NCBI GenBank assembly: GCA_963777505.1 | Contig: CAVZQN010000006.1 | Location: 423,119 to 487,118 of the forward strand | Length of the DNA: 64,000 nucleotides | From: an uncultured bacterium | GTDB taxonomy: Bacteria; Acidobacteriota; HRBIN11; JAKEFK01 | Direction of reading: 5' to 3' | Shown here: piece by piece, positions 19,208 to 33,432 of the stretch | Layout of the letters: each line of letters begins with the position of its first letter | Numbering within the stretch: the stretch's first letter is position 1 | Notes under the pieces: model-generated | What the model saw: the letters and a program-made list of their open reading frames with translations, nothing else | Databases searched by the model: none | What the model was told of the DNA's origin: nothing | Position numbers and translations under genes: made by a program

Positions 19208-19231
19208 ATTATTAAAAAATCATCAAAAATT

Positions 19232-19627
19232 TTAATATTTGGATCCACTCAGCAGACGATCCGCTTTCGCTGTATCAGAGACTTTGAGAATCGCAAGCGC
19301 ATTCTCACCCGTACCGCACGCGTATGCATATTCAATATTGATTTTTTCTCTGGTCAACTTCTTTGTTGCTTTTGCCAAAGCACCTGGCTCATGAGCCATT
19401 TCAAGAGCGATTACATTCTGTGCTGAAAATGTATATTTCTCTCTTGTGAGTACCTGACGTGCCTTCCCTGGATTATCCACTACCAGTCTTAAGATGCCAT
19501 ATTCATTGACATCATGGATGCATAAGGCAAGGATGTTCACTTTTTTTCTAAGCAGAGCTGCGCTGATGTTAAATAAGCTCCCAACGCGATTTTCCTGAAT
19601 AATTGAGATTTGTTTTTTCACGGGCAT
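19232..19627 (-). CDS. Tandem ACT-domain protein
   Basis: 'KQISI..ENRVGSL', 'EYGILRLVVD', 'PGALA...INIEYAY'. Confidence 0.88.
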   Translation of the reverse strand: MPVKKQISIIQENRVGSLFNISAALLRKKVNILALCIHDVNEYGILRLVVDNPGKARQVLTREKYTFSAQNVIALEMAHEPGALAKATKKLTREKINIEYAYACGTGENALAILKVSDTAKADRLLSGSKY

Positions 19628-19716
19628 AGCAAACTCCTCTAGAGACAGGTGAGTACTCTGCCACATTGTAACATGTGAGGAATCTTCAGGAGATTGTATA
19701 GGAGAGGGGGATTCAG

Positions 19717-20385
19717 TTATTTAATGCGCTTCATGACGTGATTCACGATTCGATCACATCGTTCGCCGTCGAATTGAAAGAGCTTTCGTAACCCGGCACC
19801 GAGTTTAGCATCAAGCCTTTTCCGAAGAAGGGCTCTTGCCCGAAACATGCGTGTTTTTACTGCTTCTTCTCCAATTTGAAGGCATTCTGCAGTCTCCTGT
19901 GTGCTTAAGCCTTGCAAGTCGCGTAATGCAAATACAGCGCGATACTTTGGTGGTAGAGAATCGATCACGGATTCCAGAATTTGTCCCAACTGTCGCCGGG
20001 TCAATTCTTCTTCCGGATTCGATCTTGATTCAAGAACTAACATTCCTTCCTCCAACTTCGATTCTTCTCCGAATGCAATAACTCTCTTTCGTCGTTTCAA
20101 TCGAGCAAGGCTTTCATGAATTGCAATGCGCGTCAGCCATGTACTGAATTTTGCATTACCGGCAAATTGATGAAGGTAGGTGAATGCTCTTACGTATGTT
20201 TCTTGAATTACATCTTCTGCCTCAGTATCGTTTCTGAGCACAGCGCGTGTCAGTCGAAAAAGCCTTTGATTATATCGGCGCATGATTATTTCAAATAAGG
20301 CAGTTTCGCCACGACGGACTCGGCTAATGACTTCGTCGTCAGTTAAGGCAAGATTTGAAGCGATTTCTGCCGGTTTAGCGCCCAT
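19717..20385 (-). CDS. ECF sigma-70 factor
   Basis: 'MRRYNQRLFR', 'AEDVIQETY', 'FSTWLTRIAIHE', 'VKTRMFRAR', C-terminal 'FDGERCDRIV'. Confidence 0.9.
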   Translation of the reverse strand: MGAKPAEIASNLALTDDEVISRVRRGETALFEIIMRRYNQRLFRLTRAVLRNDTEAEDVIQETYVRAFTYLHQFAGNAKFSTWLTRIAIHESLARLKRRKRVIAFGEESKLEEGMLVLESRSNPEEELTRRQLGQILESVIDSLPPKYRAVFALRDLQGLSTQETAECLQIGEEAVKTRMFRARALLRKRLDAKLGAGLRKLFQFDGERCDRIVNHVMKRIK

Positions 20386-20517: not shown

Positions 20518-22932
20518 ATGATTGGCGAAAATGCCGCAAGATTGCCACAACTTTATCGTCTGGCGCACAGCCTTCTGTCCTGCAAATCCAAACAAGAAGC
20601 GCTTCAAACGTCGCTGAATTCCATTTGTAACGCTCTTCAAGCAGACAGCGGTATTTTGTGGGAATTTTCAGCGGATAAGGGAGTCTTAAAACCCGCAATT
20701 ACTTTTTTCGAAGGAAAAGCAATAAAACTGCGAAATGTTTCGCCGGGCGCCGATTTTCTCGGAGAAGCCTATCGCGGCGGAAAGCCTGCAATTCTGAAAA
20801 GCGAATCATTGCAGCAGCCGAATAAGCATCTACAGTTCAGCGATGATAAAGAGCTTTCATCGATCCTTGTATTTCCGTTGCGAGCGAAAGGTGAGCCAGA
20901 TTATGTCTTCGAATTTGTCTATCACTCGGGAAATAATAGGGCCTTCCCCATAGAAGACATCGATTTTGTCGGCCAGTGTGCTGATTTATATCTGATGTCG
21001 ATACGAAGTTGGAAGATGCGTGAAGATCAAACGAATAGTCAGCTACACGCGATCACCAGATTAACTCTTCTTTATGATATCAGTCAGATTTTTCATTCCA
21101 CGCTTGAATTGAGTGAGCTCCTCCCGATCATCACTGAAAAGATTCGCGAAATTCATGAAGCCCAAACGTGTACCATTTGGGTTCCTGATGGAGAGAACCT
21201 CACGTATGGATACAGTTCGGGTGGATATTCCGAAATTTTTGAATCAGTGAAAACGCTTGAAGATGATCCAGCGTGTGATGTATCGCACACCAGAGAAAGC
21301 ATTCTGTTTGAAGACGCCTCTCAAGAAGAGCGTTTACGGAAACGATTTTCGAATCCGGAAGAATCTCCTGTTATCACGTATATGGTTTCGCCTCTAAAAG
21401 TGAAGGATGAATTTCTCGGAGTGATCGAGGTTATGAATCGGATCGAAGGGGACCCTCACTATAACGAAGTGGATCAATTCCTATTGAATGATCTTGCTAC
21501 TCAAGCTGCCGTATCGATTCATAATGCGAATCTTCTTGCTGCTGAGCGGAAAGCACAAGAGCTCGATGCTTTGCTGAAAATAAGCCATGAAATTACATCA
21601 ACACTCGATCTCAACAGGGTTCTTCTAACAATCGTAAATCAATCGGCGAATCTAATTCCTTATGATCGAGCCTCGATATCACTCGTGGATCGAGGAAAGG
21701 TTGATATTGGTGCAGTCTCCGGACGTATTGAAGTCGATAGAAAAAGTCAGGAGATGAAGGATCTGCACAGCATGCTGACCTGGGCAGCTGGTTTGAATAA
21801 AGGTATTTATGTCTCTGAATTCAATAAAAAGATCATTACGGAACGTGAGGAAGATCAGGAAAAGTTTAGAGCATACTTTGAAAAAACTGGACAAAAATCC
21901 TTCGTTGCTATTCCACTGAAGGATGAAGAAGGTGCGTTAGGAATTCTTTGTTTTGAAAGTGCGTCATCTTATTTTCTGGATGATCGACACCTGGAAGTCG
22001 CAAGCATCCTGGCAAATCAAGCAACCGTAGCAATTCGCAATGCTCAACTTTACCGACAGGTACCCCTTGTTGATCTGATGAAGCCGTTCTATAAAAAGAA
22101 AGCCCAGATCATGAAGATGCCCAGAACCCGAAAAATCGCATGGGCAACCGGGATTGGAGCTGCACTGTTGCTATTGATTCTTGTGCCATGGAACATGAAA
22201 GTTGTTGGGGATGTCACGATTCTTCCTTCGTTAAGAACGCCTGTAGTTTCTGAAGTAGAAGGCATAGTCCAAAAAGTCCACTTCCGCGAAGGTGATCGTG
22301 TGAACTCCGGAAAAGAAATTGCTGATTTGAAGGACTACGATTACCGATTGGCATTGGAAGGCTTTCAATCGCGACGTGATGTGCTGTTTAAGGAAATCAG
22401 CCGAAGTGAAAGCCAGGGCGATTCAAATACTGCCCGTTTAAAAAGGATCGAAATTGAACAAGTCAATCGTGAAATTAATTTTTCAAACGATCAGTTGGGA
22501 CGTACAAAACTTCGATCCCCGGTTGATGGAATTATTATGACGCCGCGTATTGAAGAAAAGGCCGGACAACTTATCCGGAAAGGTGAAGAATTTTGCGAAG
22601 TCGCTAATGTGAAGGAAGTGCGAGCTGAAGTCGCAATTGATGAAGGCGATTTATCTTATTTGAAGGCCGGACAAAAAATAGCATTAAAAATGAATTCTTA
22701 TCCAACCGCGAAGTTTTATGGAACGGTAAAACATCTTGGAGCAGAACTTACAGGCAATGAATCGAGGCGCTATTACATTTTAGAAGCTGAAGTCGAAAAT
22801 CCTGAAGAGCTTTTGAAATCGGGAATGGTTGGTAAAGCGAAAGTTGAAACCGGGTACCGCAGCATTGGTTATGTCTTATTGAGACAACCTTTCCGTTTTC
22901 TATGGAAAAAACTCTGGGTTTGGATGCCCTGA
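20518..22932 (+). CDS. Triple-GAF + TM + HlyD/MFP fusion protein
   Basis: Three GAF-like repeats ('LGVIEVMN...DQFLLNDLATQAAVSIHNA', 'LGILCFES...LANQATVAIRNAQLY'), a TM helix near aa 540-560, then MFP lipoyl/coiled-coil/barrel ('EGIVQKVHFREGDRV', 'LRSPVDGII', 'LKSGMVGKAK'). Confidence 0.88.
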   Translation: MIGENAARLPQLYRLAHSLLSCKSKQEALQTSLNSICNALQADSGILWEFSADKGVLKPAITFFEGKAIKLRNVSPGADFLGEAYRGGKPAILKSESLQQPNKHLQFSDDKELSSILVFPLRAKGEPDYVFEFVYHSGNNRAFPIEDIDFVGQCADLYLMSIRSWKMREDQTNSQLHAITRLTLLYDISQIFHSTLELSELLPIITEKIREIHEAQTCTIWVPDGENLTYGYSSGGYSEIFESVKTLEDDPACDVSHTRESILFEDASQEERLRKRFSNPEESPVITYMVSPLKVKDEFLGVIEVMNRIEGDPHYNEVDQFLLNDLATQAAVSIHNANLLAAERKAQELDALLKISHEITSTLDLNRVLLTIVNQSANLIPYDRASISLVDRGKVDIGAVSGRIEVDRKSQEMKDLHSMLTWAAGLNKGIYVSEFNKKIITEREEDQEKFRAYFEKTGQKSFVAIPLKDEEGALGILCFESASSYFLDDRHLEVASILANQATVAIRNAQLYRQVPLVDLMKPFYKKKAQIMKMPRTRKIAWATGIGAALLLLILVPWNMKVVGDVTILPSLRTPVVSEVEGIVQKVHFREGDRVNSGKEIADLKDYDYRLALEGFQSRRDVLFKEISRSESQGDSNTARLKRIEIEQVNREINFSNDQLGRTKLRSPVDGIIMTPRIEEKAGQLIRKGEEFCEVANVKEVRAEVAIDEGDLSYLKAGQKIALKMNSYPTAKFYGTVKHLGAELTGNESRRYYILEAEVENPEELLKSGMVGKAKVETGYRSIGYVLLRQPFRFLWKKLWVWMP

Positions 22933-22948
22933 GCTCCGTTCGTAAGTA

Positions 22949-23043
22949 TAGGGTACGCAGCTCAACCGCATTTATGGGGGCGAGCAGTACCGTAAAGTTG
23001 ATTGCTACGGCACTGCCTCGCATTCGCTCGGCTGCGTGCCTTA
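22949..23043. repeat. REP-like inverted element between the two MFP-fusion genes
   Basis: tagggtacgcagc (22949-22961) pairs with gctgcgtgcctta (23031-23043); internal ccgta/tacgg hairpin. Confidence 0.55.
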
Positions 23044-23056
23044 CTACAAATTAATT

Positions 23057-25198
23057 ATGACTTATTACGAACATCTTTCAGAATCTCCCACAAGAAAACT
23101 GGGTTCCACAGCACCTGATGCAATTATGCCCGCGCTTCGTCCTGATGTTGTTGTGCGGCGCCTCGCCCAAAAAGATGAAGTTTATTACGTAATAAAAGAT
23201 CCGCTGATTCAAGCGTATTACAAGTTCACTCCCGATGAGTGGGAAATCATAGCGTTCTTTGATGGAACCCGCACCATTGACCAGATTGTTGAAGAGTACA
23301 ACAACAAAAACTCGAACGAAGTTATCAATGATGAAACTGTAATCAGTTATCGTCAATCACTCAAAGAAATGGATTTGCTGACTCTCCCCGCAATGGAAAA
23401 AAGTCTTCAATTCATGGAGCGAATCAAAGAGCAGCGAAAGAACCGCGCCGATACAAGTAAATTCAAAAATCTTTTTGAGATTACATTTTCAGCATGGGAC
23501 CCTGATGAATCGTTTAACAAGGTGATCCCGTATCTGCGATTTCTTTACACAAAACCATTCTTCATTATTTCTTTCACTGCAATTTTAATGATGGCGGCAG
23601 TAAACATTCTTAAATGGGAAGAATTTAAGCAGGGAACAATCCAACTTTACACATTCACCGATAAATCATTATGGGAAATTCTTGTGTTCCTGATTCTGAT
23701 GACTGCGACCGGTACATTGCATGAAATCGGACATGGCATGACTCTTAAAAACTTTGGCGGAGAAGTCAGGCAAATGGGCTTACTCCTGTTTTATTTAACT
23801 CCTGCATTTTATTGTGATGTCAGTGATTCGTATCTCCTGACAAAGCGGAAAGAACGGCTCTGGGTTACTTTTGCTGGTGTTTATAGCGAACTGGTTTTAT
23901 GTTCCATTGCAACCTTCGTCTGGTTTTTTGCTGTGCCTGGGACACTCATATATGACTTTGCATTTCAAGTAATTTTGTTTACAGGAGTTTCATCATTTTT
24001 GATCAACATGAATCCGTTGATCAAACTTGACGGTTACTATGCTTTGATGGACACACTTGAGATCCCCGAATTGCGCGAAGAGTCTTTTGCACACATCACC
24101 CGAAGGATCAAAAAATTGTTCGGTCTGAAGGTCGAAGAGTTGGAAGGACTGACTCGAAGAAAAAGACGTATTTACTGGGCTTACGGTATAGGCGCGATAC
24201 TGTACACAGTAACACTGTACGTCCTCATTGTTTTTTGGTTACGAAATGTTTACCTGGAGACATTTCGGGGGTTCGGATATGTTCTTCTTGCAGGTACTGT
24301 TTACTTTCTCTTTCGCAAGGAAATTCGCGGAGGTTATAATTTTCTGCGGTTCGTTTATCTTGATAAAAAAGAAATGTTATTAAAAAAATTAAAGAACAAA
24401 TCTACAGCCGTTGTAATTATCGCTTTGCTTTTGCTGGCGACAATTCCAAAAACTCATATGAAGGTCTCCGGGCCATTTGAAGTACAACCAGTACAACAAA
24501 ACGAAATACGAGCTGAAGTGGATGGTTTTATCCGCAAAGTGCTGGTTCGTGAAAACGATTCTGTTTCTGCGGGACAAGAACTGGCTGTGATGGAGAATCC
24601 TCAGCTCCTTCAAGATTCATCGCGGCTATTGTCTGAGCTTTCTACAATCGATCGAAACTTAAAAATTGCTGAGATAGATGGAAATACGAGTGAATATCAG
24701 AAGTCATTGCGTTTGAAACGTGAAATGATTGCACAAAATGCCGAGATTCAGCGGAAATTAAGCCATCTTTCGCTGCGATCTCCGATCCCTGCTCAAGTAG
24801 CGACTTCACGTGTGGAAGAAAAATATGGCGAATTCTTAAAGCGTGGTGATGTCTTTTGTAAAATGATTGCAGTGGATCGAGTCAAGATTGAAATTCCAGT
24901 ACGTGAATATTATGTCCCTGATTTGAAAAAAGGGCAGACCGTGAAACTTAAACTTGAGGCGTATCCAACTGAAACTTTTGAAGGAAAACTCGAGCAAGTA
25001 TCTCCTGCGATTCGTAAGCGTGTCGAGGCATTAGAAGGAACCTATACCCAGTTTCTGGCTACTGCGATTATTCAAAATCCGGAAGGAAAATTGCTGCCTG
25101 GAATGCGTGGTGATGCAAAAATTTTAGCTGAAAGGTATTCAGTGGCGGGACGTATTTTTCGTGAACTACGCCGTTGGATCCAATCCCGAATCTGGTAA
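23057..25198 (+). CDS. PqqD/RRE-like domain + M50 (site-2) intramembrane peptidase + HlyD/MFP fusion
   Basis: N-terminal 'YYVIKDP...YYKF...WEIIAFFDGTRTIDQI...LKEMDLL' (wHTH/RRE-like); HEIGH, 'AFYCDVSD', 'FAGVYSE', 'NMNPLIKLDGYY' (M50); C-terminal MFP 'DGFIRKVLVRENDSV', 'LLPGMRGDAKI'. Confidence 0.88.
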   Translation: MTYYEHLSESPTRKLGSTAPDAIMPALRPDVVVRRLAQKDEVYYVIKDPLIQAYYKFTPDEWEIIAFFDGTRTIDQIVEEYNNKNSNEVINDETVISYRQSLKEMDLLTLPAMEKSLQFMERIKEQRKNRADTSKFKNLFEITFSAWDPDESFNKVIPYLRFLYTKPFFIISFTAILMMAAVNILKWEEFKQGTIQLYTFTDKSLWEILVFLILMTATGTLHEIGHGMTLKNFGGEVRQMGLLLFYLTPAFYCDVSDSYLLTKRKERLWVTFAGVYSELVLCSIATFVWFFAVPGTLIYDFAFQVILFTGVSSFLINMNPLIKLDGYYALMDTLEIPELREESFAHITRRIKKLFGLKVEELEGLTRRKRRIYWAYGIGAILYTVTLYVLIVFWLRNVYLETFRGFGYVLLAGTVYFLFRKEIRGGYNFLRFVYLDKKEMLLKKLKNKSTAVVIIALLLLATIPKTHMKVSGPFEVQPVQQNEIRAEVDGFIRKVLVRENDSVSAGQELAVMENPQLLQDSSRLLSELSTIDRNLKIAEIDGNTSEYQKSLRLKREMIAQNAEIQRKLSHLSLRSPIPAQVATSRVEEKYGEFLKRGDVFCKMIAVDRVKIEIPVREYYVPDLKKGQTVKLKLEAYPTETFEGKLEQVSPAIRKRVEALEGTYTQFLATAIIQNPEGKLLPGMRGDAKILAERYSVAGRIFRELRRWIQSRIW

Positions 25199-25200
25199 TG

Positions 25201-25249
25201 TTTACCGCAGAGAACACAGAGTTTTCTGTGTCTCTGCGGTAAAGTTTTT
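25201..25249. terminator. Long hairpin/bidirectional terminator of the ACCGCAGAG...CTCTGCGGT repeat type
   Basis: tttaccgcagaga...tctctgcggtaaa inverted repeat between convergent genes. Confidence 0.75.
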
Positions 25250-25252
25250 ATC

Positions 25253-25630
25253 TTAGCGTTTTGGGGCTACTTTCTTCGCCATTACTTGTTTTGGCGCTGC
25301 TTTCTTTGCAAGTGTCATTTTAGGTGCAGCTTTTTTCGCAAGCGTCATCTTAGGCGCTGCTTTCTTGGCCATGATTTGTTTTGGTGCAGCTTTCTTTGCC
25401 ATAATCTGCTTTGGCGCTGCTTTCTTAGCCATGATTTGCTTTGGTGCCGCTTTCTTTGCCATGATCTGCTTTGGCGCTGCTTTCTTCGCCATCGTCATTT
25501 TTGGTGCAACGCGTGGGGTAAGATGTGTTCCCACTGTTTCTACCTTGAATTCGTAATGTTCCTGTCCGGTTGCTTCTTTCAATTGTCTTTTTTGCTCATC
25601 AGTTAATCGGATAATTGTCTCATCGGCCAT
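25253..25630 (-). CDS. Small leader + Lys/Ala/Pro-repeat protein; candidate secreted precursor peptide
   Basis: AGGAGG SD and sigma54 promoter upstream; 44-aa leader (IIRLTDEQKRQLKEATG...LTPRVAPK) plus 8 decamers. Repeat variation is largely synonymous in this frame. Confidence 0.85.
   Translation of the reverse strand: MADETIIRLTDEQKRQLKEATGQEHYEFKVETVGTHLTPRVAPKMTMAKKAAPKQIMAKKAAPKQIMAKKAAPKQIMAKKAAPKQIMAKKAAPKMTLAKKAAPKMTLAKKAAPKQVMAKKVAPKR
25259..25498 (-). repeat. 8 x 30-bp coding tandem repeat encoding (M/Q)(T/I/V)(M/L)AKK(A/V)APK
   Basis: Read directly: MTMAKKAAPK, 4x QIMAKKAAPK, 2x MTLAKKAAPK, QVMAKKVAPK. Confidence 0.95.
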
Positions 25631-25688
25631 TTGGTTTGCCCTCCTGTTGGCAATTTTTTTATGTTTGCTTAATTACGATTTTATGTAC

Positions 25689-25704
25689 TGCAAGCTTGTT
25701 GCCA
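25689..25704 (-). promoter_or_regulatory. sigma54 (-24/-12) promoter TGGCAACAAGCTTGCA
   Basis: Exact GG-N10-GC spacing with TGGCA and TTGCA cores, about 60 bp upstream of the repeat-protein ATG and adjacent to a sigma54 activator gene. Confidence 0.85.
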
Positions 25705-25729
25705 TCTTTTTTATTGAGGAGAGAATGGA

Positions 25730-25805
25730 ATTTTGACCTACAAAACAGGGGTAATTTTTCAACCCCAGGGTTGAATTTTTAACCACCTGAGCTCGATTTA
25801 ACCAC
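25730..25805. promoter_or_regulatory. Putative enhancer (UAS) array for the adjacent bEBP
   Basis: GGGGT-N9-ACCCC (25748-25766) and GGTT-N8-AACC (25769-25784); ATTT(T)..AACC-like motif recurs at roughly 20-bp period. Confidence 0.55.
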
Positions 25806-25852
25806 TTAGTTGTGACCTTCGTGGTAATAAGTTGTGTCGATAACACGCTCTA

Positions 25853-27220
25853 CTACAGATTATATTTGCGGCTCAGATACTTCATACGATTGCGATCAAT
25901 GCCTAAAATTTCTGCGGCTCGTGCTTTGACTCCCCCTGCCCGTTCGATTGCAGCGCGGATCAATTCACGTTCATAATTTTCAACCGATCGATCCAAGGGC
26001 AAACTGTCATCCATAATCGCAGGCACTGGTCCACCGGCACACGATATATGTGAAGGAAGGTCTTCTTTGTGTACAACTTCGCTATCGATCGTTAACAAAA
26101 GCGTCTGAACAAGATTTTCAAGTTCGCGGACATTTCCTTTCCATGGATAGCTTCTCAATGTATCCATAGCTGCGGCATCAAATCGTTTTGGACCTGCCGG
26201 GCGGTCTTTCGAATAACTCTTAAGAAAATGATCAAGCAGTAGCGGAATATCTTCTTGCCGCTCACGTAAAGGCGGAACTTGTATCGGAAAAACATTAATC
26301 CTGAAGTACAAATCTTCACGAAATTCACCTTTTCGAATTTTTGCTTCCAGGTCTTCATTTGTCGCAGTAACCAAACGCACATCCGTTTCAATCGTTCGAT
26401 TTCCTCCGAGGCGTTCAAACTTGCGCTCCTGCAGCACGCGCAGAAGTTTGGTTTGCACTGTGAGAGGGATCGCACCAATTTCATCCAGAAATAGCGTGCC
26501 GCCATTTGCCGTTTCAAACTTACCGGCATGAGCTGCATGTGCTCCGGTATAGGCTCCTTTTTCGTGACCAAAAAGCTCACTTTCAACGAGAGTCTCTGGG
26601 ATTGCGGCACAATTCACACTAATAAAAGGACCTCTGCTGCGTGAACTATGGTAATGAATTGCGCGTGCGATTAATTCTTTCCCAGTTCCACTTTCACCGC
26701 GGATGATTACAGTAGTAGTACCTTGCGCTACCCGCCGGATCGCTTCAAAAACACGCTGCATCCCGGGGCTAACGCCAATCATATTTTCGAACGAATATTT
26801 TTCCCGCAGTTCATCCCTCAGGCGCGTATTCTCACGTTCCATCGCTTGTTTTTCCAAAGCCCGGCGCATAATTAATTTCAATTCCATAAAATCAAATGGC
26901 TTACGGAAAAAGTCGTAAGCACCCGCTTCAATGGCTTTTAATACGGACTGCATTTCTGCTTCACCGGACATAACAATGACAACGCATCCAGGATTTTTTT
27001 CGTGAACTTTTGCTAGTAGATTGAGCCCTTCATCAACCGTTCCACTTGGAGGAAGCTGAAGATCCAGTAATACAAGATCAGGATCTTCCTTTTGAAGTAG
27101 TAGTTCGCCGGAAGGACGATCTGCTGCTTCAACAATTTCGTATTCTTTACCCAATGCAAATATGATTTGCTGTCGCAGAAAACGATCATCTTCGATGAGT
27201 GCGATTTTTTTCTCAGGCAT
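25853..27220 (-). CDS. sigma54-dependent response regulator (NtrC family, PrsR-like)
   Basis: REC domain 'IEDD...LLDLQLPP...EGL...GAYDFFRKP'; AAA+ 'GESGTGKE', 'ELFGHEKGAYTGA', 'LFLDEIG', 'WKGNVREL'; Fis-type HTH. ATG 27220 overlaps the kinase stop. Confidence 0.92.
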   Translation of the reverse strand: MPEKKIALIEDDRFLRQQIIFALGKEYEIVEAADRPSGELLLQKEDPDLVLLDLQLPPSGTVDEGLNLLAKVHEKNPGCVVIVMSGEAEMQSVLKAIEAGAYDFFRKPFDFMELKLIMRRALEKQAMERENTRLRDELREKYSFENMIGVSPGMQRVFEAIRRVAQGTTTVIIRGESGTGKELIARAIHYHSSRSRGPFISVNCAAIPETLVESELFGHEKGAYTGAHAAHAGKFETANGGTLFLDEIGAIPLTVQTKLLRVLQERKFERLGGNRTIETDVRLVTATNEDLEAKIRKGEFREDLYFRINVFPIQVPPLRERQEDIPLLLDHFLKSYSKDRPAGPKRFDAAAMDTLRSYPWKGNVRELENLVQTLLLTIDSEVVHKEDLPSHISCAGGPVPAIMDDSLPLDRSVENYERELIRAAIERAGGVKARAAEILGIDRNRMKYLSRKYNL

Positions 27221-27914
27221 TAGACTCTGCCGGGAAGAAAACTCGAAACGTGGTTCCTTCATGAGGGGCGCTTTCTACTGCCAGGCGGCCATGATGCAGT
27301 GCAAATATTTGCTGGCTCGTAAAGAGTCCGAGCCCCATGCCGTGATCTTTGGTAGTCATAAACGGCTGAAAAAGTTTGCTCTCTAAATATTCCTGGGTGA
27401 TCCCAATTCCTGTATCCGCAATCTCTACTCCGACCCGCTTTTTAGTGCGAGTATCGGCACGCCATGTACGAAGCGTCAATGTTCCACCCTCTGGCATTGC
27501 ATCGATCGCATTTTCTACGAGATTTATAAACGCTTCCCGCAGATAAAAAGCATCTCCCCAGATGGGCGGAAGTTCTTCAAAATTAGTTTCGATTTTTATC
27601 TGCCGGAGTGATTTGTTCGGAAGCGAATCTAGAATCGCTATGAGAACATCATTCACATTGATACGAAGTTTGATAATGACTTGCTTTTGATGATCCCGAA
27701 AGCGTTTTACGATTGTATCCATTCTGCCGATCGTATCAGCCAGTACTTCCATCATGCTTGTTTTGAACAGTGGATTCTCATAATTTGAATCCATGTTTTG
27801 AAGCAGAGCACTCAACCGGAAGGCAAGATTTTTCAAATCGTGTACGATGACGGAATCTACAGTTCGACGCAATGAAACACGTGAAGCGCTTGTACTTGTT
27901 TTTCTTTTACCCAT
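27213..27914 (-). CDS. Sensor-less histidine kinase (PrsK-like HisKA + HATPase_c)
   Basis: H-box 'VHDLKNL...NPLF', N-box 'NLVENAIDAM', 'DTGIG', 'FQPFMTTK', 'GMGLGL'. Only about 25 aa precede the H-box. Confidence 0.88.
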   Translation of the reverse strand: MGKRKTSTSASRVSLRRTVDSVIVHDLKNLAFRLSALLQNMDSNYENPLFKTSMMEVLADTIGRMDTIVKRFRDHQKQVIIKLRINVNDVLIAILDSLPNKSLRQIKIETNFEELPPIWGDAFYLREAFINLVENAIDAMPEGGTLTLRTWRADTRTKKRVGVEIADTGIGITQEYLESKLFQPFMTTKDHGMGLGLFTSQQIFALHHGRLAVESAPHEGTTFRVFFPAESNA

Positions 27915-27949
27915 AGCTACGTTTTTTTCACCACAAAGACACAAAGACT

Positions 27950-29602
27950 CTACAAGTATTTGACGATTAGCAGCGTCAAATCATCGCTACGTGGAAGTTC
28001 AGTTGTATGATTTGTGACGGTATCAATTACAGCTTGAAGAATGCTTTCTGAATTCAAAGCTCTATTTGTAATCAGTGTATTGCGCAAACGTTCTTCTCCA
28101 AAAAGTTCACCGCCAGGTCCATGCGCTTCTGTCACTCCATCAGTGTAGAGACACAATACATCTCCCGATTTTAGATCAATTGTTCGTTCTTCAAGCACGG
28201 CTTGTTCGATAACGCCCAGCACCATTCCTCTTGCTTCAAGTTCAACCCATTCGCCGGACTGTTTCACAAGAAAAGGAGGATTGTGTCCGGCATTTATATA
28301 GGTAAGTTTGCCATCTGAATCAAGGATTCCAATAAAGAGGCTTACAAATTTCCCCATATTTGAGCGTTGCACCAGAAAGCGATTTACATTTCCAATTGAT
28401 TCCAGAAGATTCTTATGACGTGATACTTCTGAAAAAAGAACTCCTTGAACAAGTGAAGTCAGTATTGCTGCAGAGATCCCTTTTCCTGATACATCTGCGA
28501 TGACAAAAGCCGTCCGGCCATCAACGAGCTGAATCAGGTCATAATAATCACCGCTGATTTTTCTACTTGGAGTATTTTGTGCACAAGCTTCGAACGTTTG
28601 ATAGGTTCCATGGATTTCAGGTAAAAGGCTTTCCTGAATTTCACGCGCCGTATGTAGTTCCATCTCAAGTTTTTCTTTTTCACGCGATTCACGTAGAAGC
28701 TTCGCATTCATCAGAACTGCACTTGCATCGTTTGCAAGTGATTCCAACAGGCCCTCGCTGATTGTGGACAGGATCGCCGTAGCCTTGCGGCTATCAAGAT
28801 AGATAGCGCCGAGCACATTTACTTTCAGACTAAATTCTCCGGATCCTTCAAAGCTTTGAGACTGACGTAGGGGAAGGCAAACAACTGTGCTCAGTTCCAG
28901 CGCTGCAATACTTTCAGCCTGCGGAAAAGGATTTTGATTAGGGCCGCTCATAATTTGTCTTGTTCCTGTTTGAATCACATCATTCAATACAGTACTGCTG
29001 ACTCGAAACTCACTTTCGTTGAGGTTCTGTTTGTTGTTATTTCGTCCGCGCTGAAACCGGGGTTGCTTTGAATCGTCTAAAAGAACAATGAAACCTCGTT
29101 CCGCATGTGTAATATCCAGCGCTATATCAAGCACAACATCAAGAATTTCGTGTAATGGAACACCGGCAGAAAATTGACGGACTCTTTCCAAAAAACGTGA
29201 AACATGTTGCAGGTCATTTGCTGATGAAGATTGATCAAAAAAAGTTGTTGATTGAATGGATGTCAGGAATGGTTCTGGCGGCTTAGCGTCCGCACCTGTT
29301 AGAAATATCAGTTCAGGATATTCGTTATGCGAAAGTTGGATTTTGTCTCCATGTGTGAGCGGTTTTTGTGTTTGAATGCGTTCGCCATTAACGAATGTTC
29401 CTGATTTGCTGCTGCAATCCTGGATGCGGAATTGATTTCCAACGCGCGTAATTTGCGCGTGAACTCGCGATACAAACGGATCATTTATTTTAAGATCGTT
29501 TTCACCGAGTCTGCCGATTTTAAAATCATCTTTTTGCAGACGAACAACACGTTCATCTCCCTTTGCATCGCGAAGTATTAGCCGTGGTTCAGATTCGGCC
29601 AT
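27950..29602 (-). CDS. FHA-GAF-PP2C (SpoIIE/RsbU-like) phosphatase
   Basis: FHA 'IGR...VSRVHA...SKSGTFVNG'; GAF 'AERGFI...LGAIYLDS'; PP2C 'SGDYYD', 'ADVSGKG', 'NAGHNPP', 'YTDGVTE', 'DDLT'. Confidence 0.92.
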   Translation of the reverse strand: MAESEPRLILRDAKGDERVVRLQKDDFKIGRLGENDLKINDPFVSRVHAQITRVGNQFRIQDCSSKSGTFVNGERIQTQKPLTHGDKIQLSHNEYPELIFLTGADAKPPEPFLTSIQSTTFFDQSSSANDLQHVSRFLERVRQFSAGVPLHEILDVVLDIALDITHAERGFIVLLDDSKQPRFQRGRNNNKQNLNESEFRVSSTVLNDVIQTGTRQIMSGPNQNPFPQAESIAALELSTVVCLPLRQSQSFEGSGEFSLKVNVLGAIYLDSRKATAILSTISEGLLESLANDASAVLMNAKLLRESREKEKLEMELHTAREIQESLLPEIHGTYQTFEACAQNTPSRKISGDYYDLIQLVDGRTAFVIADVSGKGISAAILTSLVQGVLFSEVSRHKNLLESIGNVNRFLVQRSNMGKFVSLFIGILDSDGKLTYINAGHNPPFLVKQSGEWVELEARGMVLGVIEQAVLEERTIDLKSGDVLCLYTDGVTEAHGPGGELFGEERLRNTLITNRALNSESILQAVIDTVTNHTTELPRSDDLTLLIVKYL

Positions 29603-29612
29603 ATTGTATTCG

Positions 29613-30347
29613 TTAATTTGCGATCGTGATCTTGCCGGATGTTCCTGGTTTCAATTGCCCTTTTTCGGATTGAGTTAGAATTTCCAAAATTACCGGTGCC
29701 ATTCCACTTCCAGCATCGATAACAGAACTGATCCATCTAATTTTTGCGGTAAATTTCTTAGAAGTTGCCGTATTCGGGACAAATTCAGCTTTTTTCCCTA
29801 ATGAAAATTGTCCGAGTTGCTCTTCCTGAACGTAAATACGTGCTAAAAGCGGAGTCGAAGCTGTGATTCTAAATAAAGGAACATCTTCATCCTCCACCAC
29901 ACGTTGACCAAGACGGGCGTATCGCTCAACGACAACTCCTGAAAATGGAGCCGTGATAATACTCTTTTCATAATTAACGCGGGCAATCTCATTTTCCATT
30001 TTTGCGCGATCAAATCCCAATCTGCGTTCATCATATTCCTGGGACGATAGAAGTTCCTGATCATGCAAAGATTTCGCTCTTTGAAATGCAGACTCAGATT
30101 CCTCCATTGTTACTCTTGCCTTTTCCATCTCGAGCTTCAAATCTTCATTTTCAAGGCTCGCGAGCGGAGTTCCTTTTTTCACGGATTGACCTCGATCAAC
30201 ATGGATTTGTTCGATGATCCCGGTGAGACGAGTCTTGATTTCTACATCGTTTTCTACAAAAAGTGAGGTGTCAAAAATCAGCGATTGTGCACCAACGTGA
30301 GGCGCGAAAAGACAGAATCCAAGCAGGGTTAATAGTCCTATTTTCAT
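29613..30347 (-). CDS. Stand-alone periplasmic adaptor (RND/HlyD MFP) with signal peptide
   Basis: 'GIIEQIHVDRGQSVKKG', 'ITAPFSGVV', 'LKPG'. First gene of the MFP-PP2C-HK-RR run. Confidence 0.85.
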   Translation of the reverse strand: MKIGLLTLLGFCLFAPHVGAQSLIFDTSLFVENDVEIKTRLTGIIEQIHVDRGQSVKKGTPLASLENEDLKLEMEKARVTMEESESAFQRAKSLHDQELLSSQEYDERRLGFDRAKMENEIARVNYEKSIITAPFSGVVVERYARLGQRVVEDEDVPLFRITASTPLLARIYVQEEQLGQFSLGKKAEFVPNTATSKKFTAKIRWISSVIDAGSGMAPVILEILTQSEKGQLKPGTSGKITIAN

Positions 30348-31031: not shown

Positions 31032-32195
31032 ATGAAAAAGATGGGGGTCGGAGGGATCGGCTGTGTAACTCTTTTTATCCTTCCATTTGCGGCAGTCGGG
31101 ACTTTCATGTCCTTTGTTTTTGTTTCTGACTTTGTTGATTGGTTTCGGATGTTGAGCTGGAAAGAAGTTCCGGCAATTATCTTAAGCGCTAATCTTGAAC
31201 AGAGTCGCAGCAGCAAATCGACAACCTATGAAACAGTAGCGGAATATGAATATGTTTACGGCGGACGCACGTATCGAAGCACAAGAGTCTCAAGGTATTC
31301 CGGTAGCGATAACATTGGAACGTTTCATCAGGATATCTACAATGAAATATCCCGATACCGTGATTCAAAAAGGCCTTTTCGATGCTACGTAAATCCTGAC
31401 TCGCCAGAACAAGCGATCCTTTATCGCAAATCACGTTTAGCAATGCTTTGTTTTTATGCCGCTTTTGCTGGAGCATTTGGCGGAGTTGGGTTCGGTGTGC
31501 TGGCTGCAATGATCGTAGAACTGATCAACAACAGGCGCAGTTCAGCACTGGAAAAACTGTATCCTGGACAGCCATGGAAAGCACGACCCGATTGGAGTCG
31601 CGGGGAAGCGCGTACTTCTGCAGGACTAAAAATGTTTGTAGCTGTGGGAGTTTCAATTTTTGTACTCACTTTGTCGATTCCGATCCTCATTTTTATTCCT
31701 AAGGAATTAATGGAAGGAAACTTCGCAGCATTAATAGCCTTAATCCTTCCAGTGATTGCAGGTCTCTTTGTCACATGGGCAGTCCGTTCGGTTCTCCAGT
31801 GGAAACGTTTCGGGTCGGCTGTTCTTGTACTGAATGCAAATCCGGTGAAACCTGGAGAACGTTTACGGGGATTGATTAAGACTGGAGCTGAGCTGCCGCA
31901 ATCTGCAATCGTTCAATTGCAACTTAAGTGCGACCGGTCAACACGGGTACGTTCGGGAAATAAAACCAGAATTGAAAAGAACACCGAGTGGAGTCAAAGT
32001 TCTACCGGTACCGGCATGACAGGCGCTGATGGTAAAACCTGCGTTCAAGTCGATTTTGAAATTCCGGAGAATGTACCAACGACCGGAAAAGAATCCGAAA
32101 ATTCAGAAATCGAATGGGAATTACACGCGAAGTCTGAAATTCCAGGCATTGATCTAAATGCAACTTTCAAAATCCCCATTTTTCGAATTGTGTAG
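31032..32195 (+). CDS. DUF3592-like membrane protein, paralogue 1
   Basis: TM, 'W.EVPA.I.S..L', 'YEY..GRTY', 'CYVNPDSPEQAIL', further TMs, C-terminal 'PGIDL.ATF.IP.F'. Confidence 0.8.
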   Translation: MKKMGVGGIGCVTLFILPFAAVGTFMSFVFVSDFVDWFRMLSWKEVPAIILSANLEQSRSSKSTTYETVAEYEYVYGGRTYRSTRVSRYSGSDNIGTFHQDIYNEISRYRDSKRPFRCYVNPDSPEQAILYRKSRLAMLCFYAAFAGAFGGVGFGVLAAMIVELINNRRSSALEKLYPGQPWKARPDWSRGEARTSAGLKMFVAVGVSIFVLTLSIPILIFIPKELMEGNFAALIALILPVIAGLFVTWAVRSVLQWKRFGSAVLVLNANPVKPGERLRGLIKTGAELPQSAIVQLQLKCDRSTRVRSGNKTRIEKNTEWSQSSTGTGMTGADGKTCVQVDFEIPENVPTTGKESENSEIEWELHAKSEIPGIDLNATFKIPIFRIV

Positions 32196-32232
32196 TAGAG
32201 GCGAATCTAAGACTCGCCCGTAACTTGGAACT

Positions 32233-33348: not shown

Positions 33349-33432
33349 GCATGCCTGCGGTCCCTAAAGGGCAAAAGGGTTTGACTTTTGGGGGCTAACC
33401 ATATTCAATTACATCTTTCGTCTAACGAAATA

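What the first reader, a model, noticed from the sequence alone, without database searches (positions are those of the whole stretch)
20518..30347. Candidate undescribed sigma54-controlled peptide export/processing system: three MFPs, an RRE-M50 protease and a repeat-peptide cargo
Seen: two operons converge on one small gene. The + strand encodes GAF3-TM-MFP and RRE-like/M50/MFP fusions. The - strand encodes MFP, FHA-GAF-PP2C, a histidine kinase and a sigma54 activator, followed by a 125-aa leader+repeat protein with its own -24/-12 promoter. No ABC ATPase/C39 transporter, RND pump, TolC or recognisable RiPP-modifying enzyme is in the window. Known: PqqD/RRE domains bind RiPP leader peptides; M50 peptidases mature peptides in the B. 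subtilis epipeptide pathway (YydH) and, as RRE fusions, in daptide pathways; MFPs bridge inner-membrane transporters to TolC. Inference: the RRE binds the leader, the M50 domain cleaves it (and may itself provide the inner-membrane conduit), and a hetero-oligomeric MFP channel exports the cationic core. This would be a non-canonical type I-like route with its own regulators. Similar GAF-MFP/M50-MFP pairs are, to my recollection, annotated but uncharacterised elsewhere.
Basis: partly seen in the sequence, partly recalled or inferred. Interest (0 to 1): 0.92.

Follow-up and report, generated by a model that had tools for sequence, protein, structure and literature searches.

The report
Leader-guided peptide protease–adaptor export module
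A gene set conserved in soil Acidobacteria links small sigma-54-driven genes, which encode a fixed leader followed by very variable repeats, to a membrane protease that has a leader-binding domain and is fused to a periplasmic adaptor; it probably cuts and exports short peptides in a way not described before.

Summary

What the tools showed:
- The N-terminal domain of the M50 fusion models as a three-strand, three-helix fold. All of its top 11 PDB matches are RiPP recognition elements (RREs).
- The M50 zinc-site motifs are invariant.
- The C-terminus models as a MexA/MacA-like adaptor.

Synteny across 80 related loci:
- The GAF-adaptor gene lies upstream in 79.
- A convergent sigma-54 activator lies downstream in 68.
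- The gap between them always holds small genes.
- In the window's type, the leader (consensus MAxEVRIKLTDEQKAKIKxATGK) is found only in that gap. It is followed by tandem repeats of 5-22 aa with net charge -29 to +44.
- A second type instead has one to three Lys-rich peptide genes of 20-53 aa.

Promoter evidence: -24/-12 sites precede 24 of 27 and 43 of 44 peptide regions. They precede only 1 of 62 GAF-adaptor genes.

There is no ABC transporter, RND pump, TolC or C39 peptidase in the window, and no conserved modifying enzyme in the loci.

Binding, cleavage and export are inferred, not shown. The "cationic core" does not hold across relatives. I found no description of this system in print or in NCBIfam. 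I rate it a new variant of known leader-dependent peptide maturation and export.

The parts
20518..22932 (+). GAFx3 - single TM (aa 540-558) - periplasmic adaptor (MFP/HlyD) protein, 804 aa
   Evidence: An ortholog lies directly upstream of the M50 fusion in 79 of 80 related loci.
23057..25198 (+). RRE - M50 intramembrane metalloprotease - MFP fusion. The ORF is open from GTG 23036; a 100%-identical database protein of 713 aa implies a start at ATG 23057.
23150..23368 (+). RRE/PqqD-like domain (aa 39-111 of the 720-aa ORF): three strands followed by three helices
   Evidence: Model pLDDT above 90 over the fold. The Foldseek PDB top 11 hits are all RiPP recognition elements: TbiB1, PqqD, lasso B1, CteB and TigE.
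23720..23734 (+). HEIGH zinc-binding motif (H229 E230 H233). The second M50 motif N324-x-N326-P327-L328...D332-G333 lies at 24005-24034.
   Evidence: Invariant in 66 aligned homologues.
24449..25198 (+). Periplasmic adaptor part of the fusion: barrel-sandwich, alpha-hairpin (helices 522-548 and 551-576) and beta-barrel
   Evidence: Foldseek matches to MacA, MexA and AcrA at E 1e-15 to 1e-14, with TM-score up to 0.75 on the target.
25204..25240 (.). GC-rich hairpin between the two convergent stop codons; a likely bidirectional terminator
   Evidence: Read in the sequence. Its function is inferred.
25253..25630 (-). Precursor-like small protein, 125 aa: leader aa 1-44 (25499-25630), then about 8 units of MAKKAAPKQI-like decapeptide (25258-25492)
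25690..25704 (-). -24/-12 sigma-54-type promoter element TGGCAACAAGCTTGC, 74 nt upstream of the ATG
   Evidence: The same element precedes 24 of 27 orthologous small genes.
25746..25787 (-). Two copies about 20 bp apart of GGTTGAAAAATTCAACC-like sequence just after the activator's stop codon; candidate activator-binding site
   Evidence: TRF period 20. Similar paired motifs were seen by eye at the same place in related loci; they were not counted.
25853..27262 (-). REC - sigma-54 AAA+ activator - Fis-type HTH (GAYTGA loop present)
   Evidence: It is convergent downstream of the M50 fusion in 68 of 80 loci.
27213..27944 (-). Soluble histidine kinase (H-box HDLKN plus HATPase_c), with no sensor domain and no TM helix
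   Evidence: Present in 22 loci, all of the window's type.
27950..29602 (-). FHA - GAF - PP2C (SpoIIE-type) phosphatase
   Evidence: Found in only 4 of 80 loci, so it is an accessory.
29613..30347 (-). Short periplasmic adaptor (MFP), 244 aa, with a signal-peptide-like N-terminus
   Evidence: RND_mfp 146.6 bits, cutoff 94.9. Its cluster is present in 55 of 80 loci, either here or between the two large genes.

Best explanation
This is a conserved acidobacterial module for leader-dependent maturation and export of small, apparently unmodified peptides.

Proposed steps:
1. The response-regulator-type sigma-54 activator switches on a dedicated -24/-12 promoter in front of the small gene.
2. The product has a conserved leader of about 36-44 aa and a tail of tandem 5-22-aa units that evolves fast.
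3. The cytoplasmic RRE domain of the M50 fusion binds the leader.
4. The M50 intramembrane zinc protease removes the leader and perhaps cuts between repeat units.
5. The product leaves through an envelope-spanning assembly built from the adaptor domains of the M50 fusion, the GAF-adaptor and the short soluble adaptor. This assembly docks on one of the TolC-like proteins encoded elsewhere. The GAF domains gate it from the cytoplasm.

Shown here: the genes, domains and folds; the intact catalytic motifs; the exclusive gene linkage; the conserved promoter; and purifying selection on the repeat units.

Inferred: leader binding, the cleavage site(s), export, and the biological role of the peptides (signal, antimicrobial or matrix).
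For: Fold and catalytic motifs
- The N-terminal model has three strands then three helices, with pLDDT above 90 over aa 11-90 of the construct.
- Its top 11 PDB matches are all RRE-containing RiPP proteins. TbiB1 with its leader scores E 1.4e-3, probability 1.00, TM-score 0.70 on the target. PqqD scores 8e-3. Lasso B1, CteB and TigE follow.
- HExxH and NxxPLxxxDG are invariant in 66 homologues.
- The best family match is the daptide RRE-site-2-protease model, at 223 bits over aa 36-427.
- The adaptor domain matches MacA, MexA and AcrA at E 1e-15 to 1e-14.

Linkage
586 of them encode a relative.
- In the best 80 loci, the GAF-adaptor is upstream in 79 and the activator is convergent downstream in 68.
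- Of the 12 loci without the activator, 11 have at most 792 nt of contig left.
- A leader regex hit 27 ORFs in 25 loci, and all 27 lie immediately downstream of the M50 fusion. There was no hit elsewhere in the roughly 1.46 Mb of loci, six frames read.
- All 22 loci with activator plus kinase have at least one leader gene.
- Reverse test: a leader profile found 20 matches in 19 of 401 Acidobacteriota genomes. Within 1.5 kb, 15 have both the M50 fusion and the activator. Four have only one of them; three of these are at contig ends. One, on a 1.7-kb contig, has neither.

Promoter
- TGG[CT]N7[TC]TGC lies within 150 nt upstream of 24 of 27 leader genes and of the window's gene. Background is 0.022 per 150 nt.
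- It is present in 43 of 44 second-type gaps.
- It is present at 1 of 62 GAF-adaptor genes.
- rpoN is present in the genome.

The tail is a real coding product
- Among 7 repeat units there are 81 synonymous against 34 non-synonymous codon differences.
- The four units that encode the identical decapeptide have four different DNA versions.
- Close relatives keep 82-93% of the leader but have a different unit.

Precedent
- RRE domains fused N-terminally to a site-2 protease define the daptide clusters (PMC10036551, passages).
- The M50 protease EpeP is thought to both cleave and export EpeX (PMC10885120, passages).

Outer-membrane partner
- Four TolC-like ORFs exist elsewhere in the genome.
Against: - No step of binding, cleavage or export has been observed.
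- The Pfam scan gave no PqqD hit at E<=0.01. The profile-to-PDB match to PqqD is only E 0.59.
- The match to the daptide protease model is below NCBI's cutoff, 223 against 300 bits.
- Periplasmic adaptors are not known to work without an energised inner-membrane transporter. None is conserved beside the module.
- The tails are hydrophilic, whereas M50 enzymes typically cut hydrophobic or helical segments (recalled).
- Tails range from strongly acidic to strongly basic, so no common activity is obvious.
- One relative (L010) has no repeats. Five of 28 tails are only weakly periodic.
- The machinery genes lack the sigma-54 site, so co-regulation with the peptide is not shown.
Confidence: 0.5

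Rival explanations
1. Maturation only. The RRE-M50 protease cleaves the precursor as proposed. The three adaptors, however, serve an ordinary distal pump (an ABC/MacB, RND or MFS transporter encoded elsewhere), and that pump does the transport.
For: - Adaptors normally need an energised transporter (established knowledge; the review PMC8277102 was seen only as abstract and one passage).
- The genome has many ABC and RND genes and four TolC-like genes.
- A MacB-type permease lies 22 kb away in the window.
Against: - No transporter is conserved next to the module in 80 loci.
- The Pst/PhoU genes seen in about 20 loci are phosphate importers.
- The adaptor is covalently fused to the protease in the 66 aligned homologues. 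This argues that the protease itself is the inner-membrane partner.
Confidence: 0.17
2. Regulated proteolysis without export. The small protein is an intracellular regulator or stress protein, for example a disordered hydrophilin or a nucleoid-binding protein. Its level is set by sigma-54 transcription and by RRE-guided degradation. The adaptor domains act as periplasmic sensors or scaffolds.
For: - The small protein has no signal peptide or TM helix.
- The window's tail weakly resembles histone-H1-like proteins: HC2 35.2 bits against a cutoff of 40.
- The module is rich in signalling parts: GAF, REC, a kinase, PP2C, and STAS in 35 loci.
Against: - Three conserved adaptor paralogues with MexA/MacA-like hairpins are hard to explain without a periplasm-spanning conduit.
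- The tails are not conserved in charge or sequence, so a common intracellular target such as DNA is unlikely.
Confidence: 0.18
3. Cryptic RiPP. The repeats are post-translationally modified by an enzyme that is encoded elsewhere or is not recognisable. The module is only the final protease and export stage.
For: - RRE domains are typical of RiPP pathways (PMC10036551, passages).
- The layout of a conserved leader with variable cores is RiPP-like.
Against: - Clustering of the neighbours in 80 loci found no conserved enzyme beyond the core. The next clusters are STAS and Pst/PhoU.
- Many units lack Cys, Ser or Thr.
Confidence: 0.1
4. Chance neighbour. The 125-aa ORF is an independent histone-like DNA-binding protein, or a spurious ORF, with no functional tie to the flanking genes.
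For: Weak low-complexity hits to HC2 and the Burkholderia H1-like models, all below their cutoffs.
Against: - Position is exclusive in both directions of the test.
- The promoter is conserved.
- There is a synonymous excess among the units.
- The leader profile finds 424 cluster representatives at E<=0.001. In nearly all of the 150 best listed, the leader sits at or near the N-terminus of a small protein.
Confidence: 0.02

Closest known systems
Daptide RRE-site-2 protease (DapP/MpaP; NCBIfam NF041824)
   Same: - An N-terminal RRE is fused to an M50 intramembrane metalloprotease.
- It is the best family match, 223 bits over aa 36-427.
- It is encoded beside small precursor genes with a conserved leader (PMC10036551, passages).
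   Different: - The score is below the equivalog cutoff of 300.
- A C-terminal periplasmic adaptor is fused on.
- No DUF-RRE, oxidative decarboxylase, aminotransferase or methyltransferase is conserved nearby.
- The leader motif differs (ELExMEAP in daptides).
- The host is a diderm of another phylum.
- The precursor tails are tandem repeats.
Epipeptide protease EpeP/YydH/LiaK (NF058609)
   Same: It is an M50 protease that matures a small ribosomal peptide and is thought also to export it (PMC10885120, passages). The match is weak, 64 bits against a cutoff of 225.
   Different: - No radical-SAM epimerase and no ABC immunity genes are present here.
- EpeP has no RRE and no adaptor domain according to the length of the NCBIfam model (246 positions). 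I did not check this further.
Peptidase-containing ABC transporters with HlyD and TolC (bacteriocin/NHLP type I export)
   Same: The logic is the same: a leader-cleaving protease is physically joined to an envelope-spanning export route that uses an MFP. There are weak hits to NHLM_micro_HlyD.
   Different: - The protease is M50, not C39. No C39 match exists anywhere in the genome.
- The protease is fused to the adaptor, not to an ATPase.
- No energy source is evident.
Tripartite-pump adaptors MacA, MexA, AcrA and EmrA
   Same: The barrel-sandwich, alpha-hairpin and beta-barrel fold is shared.
   Different: - Here there are three paralogous adaptors.
- Two are anchored by large cytoplasmic or membrane modules (GAFx3; RRE-M50).
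- None is adjacent to a pump gene.
Eep/RseP-type processing of peptide pheromones and tandem-copy pheromone precursors such as yeast alpha-factor (recalled, not checked here)
   Same: An M50 protease releases small signalling peptides, and one precursor carries many copies of a short unit.
   Different: - Those substrates are signal peptides or secretory-pathway proteins.
- They have no RRE, no adaptor fusion and no sigma-54 control.

Membership tests
RiPP recognition element (PqqD-like RRE) | Three-stranded antiparallel sheet followed by three helices (winged helix-turn-helix) | tested here: met
   The model has strands 14-20, 23-30 and 35-39, then helices 41-48, 56-66 and 74-86, with pLDDT above 90. 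The top 11 Foldseek PDB hits are RRE proteins.
RiPP recognition element (PqqD-like RRE) | Significant sequence match to PqqD/RRE profiles | tested here: not met
   No PqqD family hit at E<=0.01 in Pfam. The profile against PDB gives PqqD 3g2b at E 0.59 only. RRE-Finder was not available.
RiPP recognition element (PqqD-like RRE) | Binds the leader of the co-encoded precursor | not testable with these tools
   This needs a binding assay. The one complex prediction gave no verdict (see Tried and rejected).
Peptidase M50 / site-2 protease | HExxH in a TM helix plus NxxPxxxxDG, and a Pfam match above the gathering score | tested here: met
   H229, E230, H233, N324, N326, P327, D332 and G333 are invariant in 66 sequences. 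PF02163 scores 29.0 bits against a cutoff of 27.2.
Daptide biosynthesis protease (NF041824 equivalog) | Score of at least 300 bits, and daptide tailoring genes alongside | tested here: not met
   Score is 223 bits. No conserved tailoring-enzyme cluster appears in 80 loci.
Periplasmic adaptor / membrane fusion protein | Lipoyl-like barrel-sandwich, coiled-coil hairpin and beta-barrel | tested here: met
   HlyD_D23 and HlyD_3 match in all three proteins. The hairpin helices are 522-548 and 551-576. MacA, MexA and AcrA match at E about 1e-15 to 1e-14.
Tripartite efflux pump / type I secretion system | Energised inner-membrane transporter (ABC, RND or MFS) encoded with the adaptor | tested here: not met
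   There is none in the window and none conserved in 80 loci. Outer-membrane factors exist elsewhere in the genome.
RiPP biosynthetic gene cluster | Precursor with a conserved leader and a variable core | tested here: met
   Leader alignment of 28 sequences. The tails are variable.
RiPP biosynthetic gene cluster | At least one post-translational modification enzyme | tested here: not met
   None was recognised in the module or conserved in the neighbourhoods.
Sigma-54-dependent gene | GG-N10-GC promoter, an adjacent bacterial enhancer-binding protein, and rpoN in the genome | tested here: met
   24 of 27 orthologues; activator with a GAYTGA loop; rpoN. Transcription itself was not observed.

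The most novel reading that the evidence does not exclude
This is a new kind of diderm peptide secretion system. An RRE-guided intramembrane protease fused to a periplasmic adaptor takes the place of the ATP- or proton-driven transporter. Together with a GAF-gated adaptor and a soluble adaptor, it forms the conduit to TolC. It chops a tandem-repeat polyprotein into many copies of a short unmodified peptide. That would make it a bacterial counterpart of eukaryotic multi-copy pheromone precursors, under sigma-54 control, and possibly a strain-specific signal.
Probability: 0.25. Interest if true: 0.92.

Novelty: new variant of a known kind. Interest (0 to 1): 0.8.

Why it matters
Acidobacteriota are among the most abundant soil bacteria, and their secreted peptides and signalling are almost unknown.

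How common the module is:
- 58 of 401 sampled Acidobacteriota genomes match the RRE-like domain.
- The protein database holds at least 2890 relatives of the fusion.
- The leader profile finds 424 cluster representatives.

Its genes are nonetheless annotated only as 'efflux RND transporter periplasmic adaptor subunit', 'putative peptide zinc metalloprotease protein' or 'hypothetical protein'.

If the mechanism holds, it would:
- extend RRE-guided peptide processing beyond modified natural products;
- show an adaptor working with a protease instead of a pump;
- reveal a large, fast-evolving repertoire of short peptides.

The tight, simple gene set makes it directly testable by heterologous expression.

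Tried and rejected
Dead ends
- The complex prediction of the N-terminal domain (alignment A2) with the leader (alignment A3) gave no verdict: ipSAE 0.07 and 0.01 against a mark of 0.32, and the controls were not run. It counts neither for nor against binding.
- A search for sequencing runs holding window 23000-27300 listed none, and no RNA holder was listed. Read laying was therefore not used, and expression is untested.

Literature searches that found no description of the module
- 'M50, HlyD, RiPP': 6 papers listed, none relevant by the listing. I opened only the tripartite-pump review, whose single 'M50' match is residue M507.
- 'daptide, M50': 0 papers.
- 'putative peptide zinc metalloprotease, HlyD': 0 papers.
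- 'RRE, M50, precursor peptide, Acidobacteri' at 3 of 4 terms: 28 papers, 20 listed. Only the protease review was useful.
- Six architecture terms at 4 of 6: 0 papers.
- 'RRE-Finder, HlyD': 0 papers.
- 'Acidobacteria, sigma-54, small peptide, enhancer-binding protein, HlyD' at 3 of 5 terms: 5 papers, none relevant by title and abstract.
- Subscription journals and supplementary files were not searchable. The RRE-family tables in the supplements of the daptide and RRE-Finder papers could list this family.

Rejected ideas
- ECF-sigma/anti-sigma site-2 cleavage. An ECF sigma gene lies divergent at 19717-20385, but no sigma-factor cluster appeared among the Pfam-annotated conserved neighbours.
- A histone-like function for the tail. 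Relatives have acidic tails.
- A strict sigma-54 regex first matched only 3 of 27 upstream regions. The relatives use TGGC[CT] rather than TGGCA, so the pattern was relaxed after I had seen those upstream sequences. It was then checked against background and against a negative set.
- NCBIfam has no model for any of the nine peptides tested. There were only low-complexity hits.

Full report
**What is in the window.**
The ORF list and translations confirm seven genes.

On the + strand:
- An 804-aa protein with three GAF domains, one TM helix (aa 540-558) and a HlyD-type periplasmic adaptor domain.
- A 720-aa ORF with an unassigned N-terminus, a Peptidase_M50 core and a second adaptor domain. A 100%-identical database protein of 713 aa implies a start at ATG 23057.

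On the - strand:
- An operon of a short adaptor with a signal-like N-terminus, an FHA-GAF-PP2C phosphatase, a sensor-less histidine kinase (H-box HDLKN) and a REC/sigma-54 AAA+/HTH activator.
- After a 222-nt spacer, a 125-aa ORF. It has 44 unique residues followed by about eight MAKKAAPKQI-like decapeptides.

Regulatory features:
- The spacer holds TGGCAACAAGCTTGC 74 nt before the ATG.
- Just after the activator's stop codon there are two copies, about 20 bp apart, of a GGTTGAAAAATTCAACC-like motif.
- A strong hairpin (25204-25240) separates the convergent stop codons.

The module is single-copy in the 5.2-Mb genome. Whole-genome family searches place no ABC ATPase, RND pump, TolC-like protein or C39 peptidase in the window. 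Four TolC-like ORFs and one rpoN lie elsewhere.

**The M50 fusion.**
NCBIfam's best match is the daptide intramembrane metalloprotease model. It scores 223 bits over aa 36-427, which includes the N-terminal domain, but this is under the 300-bit cutoff. YydH/LiaK is a distant second at 64 bits.

I aligned the N-terminal 128 residues from 57 loci and predicted the structure. The result is three strands followed by three helices, with pLDDT above 90 across the fold.

Foldseek against the PDB returned RiPP recognition elements for the top 11 ranks:
- TbiB1 bound to its leader (E 1.4e-3, probability 1.00, TM-score 0.70 on the target).
- PqqD.
- The lasso B1 protein.
- CteB.
- TigE.

TglHI, SuiB and MibB follow further down the list. 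At sequence level the signal is weak: PqqD scores E 0.59, and there is no Pfam hit.

The full-length model (pLDDT 84) shows these parts in order:
- The RRE.
- A long amphipathic helix.
- The M50 helices, with HEIGH at 229-233 and NxNPLxxxDG at 324-333. Both motifs are invariant in 66 homologues.
- A last TM helix at 455-469.
- An adaptor with a hairpin of two helices of about 26 residues each, plus a beta-barrel.

The adaptor part matches MacA, MexA and AcrA at E 1e-15 to 1e-14. An odd number of TM helices would put the RRE in the cytoplasm and the adaptor in the periplasm. I counted about seven by hydropathy and the model, so this is an inference.

**Synteny.**
A word-based protein search found at least 2890 relatives of the fusion. 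Most of the few that carry a source name are Acidobacteriota. They are named only 'efflux RND transporter periplasmic adaptor subunit' or 'putative peptide zinc metalloprotease protein'.

I analysed the best 80.
- The GAF-adaptor gene is directly upstream in 79. The exception is cut by its contig end.
- A convergent sigma-54 activator lies 450-2650 nt downstream in 68.
- Of the other 12, 11 have at most 792 nt of contig left, and one (L072) has 2504 nt without it.

Clustering all large ORFs gave the following:

| Cluster | Loci (of 80) |
|---|---|
| M50 fusion | 75 |
| GAF-adaptor | 69 |
| Activator | 59 |
| Short adaptor | 55 |
| STAS protein | 35 |
| Phosphate-uptake genes (Pst/PhoU) | about 20 |

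No exporter and no modifying enzyme is conserved.

**The small genes.**
Two layouts exist.

*The window's layout.* The short adaptor and a kinase lie behind the activator.
- A leader regex found 27 ORFs in 25 loci.
- Every one lies immediately downstream of the M50 fusion on the opposite strand. None lies elsewhere in the roughly 1.46 Mb of loci.
- All 22 loci with activator plus kinase have one or two.
- L060 has a degenerate copy.
- The leader consensus is MAxEVRIKLTDEQKAKIKxATGKxxxEIRVxxLGxN. M1, I7, L9, T10, Q13, G22 and V30 are invariant.
- The tails are tandem repeats. The best-fitting period is 5-22 aa in 27 of 28, and L010, which has no real repeat, fits 4 aa at a self-match of 0.17. 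Self-match at the best period is at least 0.43 in 23 of 28.
- Unit sequences are unrelated: GLGKK, SADTSIE, GDQEALRA, LADRANPTA, GKSIGARAS, SAQDL.
- Net tail charge runs from -29 to +44.

*The second layout.* There are 44 such loci with an activator. The short adaptor sits between the two large genes and there is no kinase. The gap holds one to three genes for Lys-rich peptides of 20-53 aa. Their N-termini resemble MAKKTLKKSKKLExTKPL or MxKPxKPVKKGKTLGAKKLEKKxPL, and their C-terminal ends are short and variable. Two of them carry repeats of their own.

*Reverse test.* A profile of the leader matched 20 places in 19 of 401 sampled Acidobacteriota genomes, almost always once per genome. Within 1.5 kb:
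- 15 have both the M50 fusion and the activator.
- 4 have only one of them; three of these are at contig ends.
- 1, on a 1.7-kb contig, has neither.

The RRE-domain profile matched 58 of the 401 genomes. Both tallies include genomes flagged unpublished: G024 in both, and G152 and G049 in the second.

Against 1.84 billion cluster representatives, the leader profile found 424 proteins at E<=0.001 and 100 at E<=1e-10. In the 150 best that are listed, the leader is nearly always at or near the N-terminus of a small protein. A few long multi-stretch hits look like low complexity.

No source names these proteins anything but 'hypothetical'. NCBIfam has no model for them.

**Promoter.**

| Region tested for TGG[CT]N7[TC]TGC | Result |
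|---|---|
| Within 150 nt upstream of leader genes | 24 of 27, plus the window's |
| Second-layout gaps, activator strand | 43 of 44 (69 sites) |
| GAF-adaptor genes, -300 to +150 | 1 of 62 |
| Background in the same loci | 0.022 per 150 nt |

- Two of the three leader-gene misses have a GTGC variant, and the third has a spacer one base longer, both read from the upstream sequences.
- Of the 69 second-layout sites, 60 are followed 50-100 nt later by an ATG-started ORF of 18-70 aa behind a GGAG-type ribosome site.
- The window's GAF-adaptor gene and short-adaptor operon also have no site.

So sigma-54 control is a conserved property of the peptide genes, not of the machinery.

**Is the tail meaningful?**
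Among seven in-register units of the window's gene, codon pairs are identical 95 times, differ synonymously 81 times and differ non-synonymously 34 times. The four units that encode exactly MAKKAAPKQI use four different DNA versions. The DNA repeat is therefore old, and the peptide unit is kept by selection.

Close relatives with 82-93% identical leaders carry a different decapeptide, MGPKVAAKRS-like against MAKKAAPKKV-like. Conserved leader plus fast-changing unit is the pattern expected of a recognition tag and a diversifying product.

**Mechanism.**
The best reading has five steps:
1. The activator switches on the peptide gene.
2. The cytoplasmic RRE captures the leader.
3. The M50 site cuts the precursor.
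4. The product leaves through an assembly of the three adaptors.
5. That assembly docks on a TolC-like protein.

Precedents exist for the first half:
- RRE domains fused N-terminally to a site-2 protease were the handle used to discover daptides (PMC10036551, passages).
- The M50 protease EpeP is thought to both cleave and export the epipeptide EpeX (PMC10885120, passages).

The second half is inference from the conserved triple-adaptor architecture. Adaptors are not known to work without an energised transporter, and none is linked here. Rival readings are given with their odds: maturation only with a distal pump; intracellular regulated proteolysis; and a cryptic RiPP.

**Comparison and novelty.**
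- The protein is not a daptide protease by NCBI's cutoff or by gene context.
- It is not a type I or PCAT system, because there is no ABC transporter and no C39 peptidase.
- It is not a RiPP cluster in the strict sense, because there is no modifying enzyme.

It works most like a leader-dependent peptide maturation and export system, with the protease fused to the adaptor instead of to the ATPase. Eight full-text searches found no description of it. Subscription journals and supplements could not be searched. I rate it a new variant of a known kind. The bolder reading, a pump-less protease-adaptor secretion route that releases multi-copy peptides, has about a one-in-four chance.

**Limits.**
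- Nothing here shows transcription, binding, cleavage or export.
- Many loci come from metagenome bins. Some have apparent frameshifts, for example in the L001 fusion and activator. A few carry non-acidobacterial labels (L006, L015, L029), which I did not examine.
- Counts across related genomes are not independent.
- The relaxed promoter pattern was chosen after I had seen the upstream sequences. It was then controlled with background and a negative gene set.

Noticed in passing
L003-L080 (second-layout loci), gap between the M50 fusion and the activator, e.g. L061:12910-12975(-) and L012:12207-12311(-): One to three sigma-54-promoted genes encode Lys-rich peptides of 20-53 aa. The N-termini resemble MAKKTLKKSKKLExTKPL or KKGKTLGAKKLEKKxPL, and the C-terminal ends are short and variable. 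They take the place of the repeat precursor. No NCBIfam model matches them.
   Followed up: partly
L021:12986-13992 and L037:11763-13115: Two tandem precursor genes per locus, each with its own -24/-12 site. The repeat units are related but not identical, and copy numbers differ.
   Followed up: partly
L024:6536-6694(-) and L028:12761-12922(-): Two second-layout Lys-rich peptides have acquired tandem repeats of their own (LTRPGA and LKGVTA units). This suggests that repeat expansion recurs in this system.
   Followed up: no
L001:5257-5685(-) and 34 other loci: A STAS-domain (anti-sigma-antagonist-like) gene recurs near the module in 35 of 80 loci. Together with the PP2C phosphatase seen in 4 loci, this hints at partner-switching control. 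I did not look for a STAS gene near the module in the window.
   Followed up: no
L011:1471-5923 and about 20 other second-layout loci: Phosphate-uptake genes (PstS, PstC/A, PstB and PhoU) lie directly upstream of the GAF-adaptor gene. This could be shared ancestry of the neighbourhood or a link to phosphate limitation.
   Followed up: no
window 47425-49749(-): A 774-aa MacB-type permease (MacB_PCD plus FtsX) with no ABC ATPase anywhere in the window. It is 22 kb from the module.
   Followed up: no
window 31032-35529(+): Two adjacent DUF3592 paralogues (387 and 371 aa), followed by a 713-aa HtrA/DegP-like serine protease with PDZ domains and a shorter trypsin-like ORF.
   Followed up: no
window 17645-20385: An M64 (IgA-peptidase-like) metalloprotease, an ACT-pair protein and an ECF sigma factor. 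The ECF sigma gene is divergent from the GAF-adaptor gene. No sigma-factor cluster appeared among the Pfam-annotated conserved neighbours in related loci.
   Followed up: partly
L001:10961-13103 and L001:13652-15060; L002:13554-17286: In these closest relatives, the M50 fusion, the activator and the phosphatase are each split over two or more reading frames. Sequencing errors or real decay cannot be told apart here.
   Followed up: no
P0138 (134 aa, on a 624-nt contig): A leader plus three repeat units is fused to an unrelated C-terminal segment that carries a Pfam PF23552 hit. It is probably a chimeric or truncated contig.
   Followed up: no
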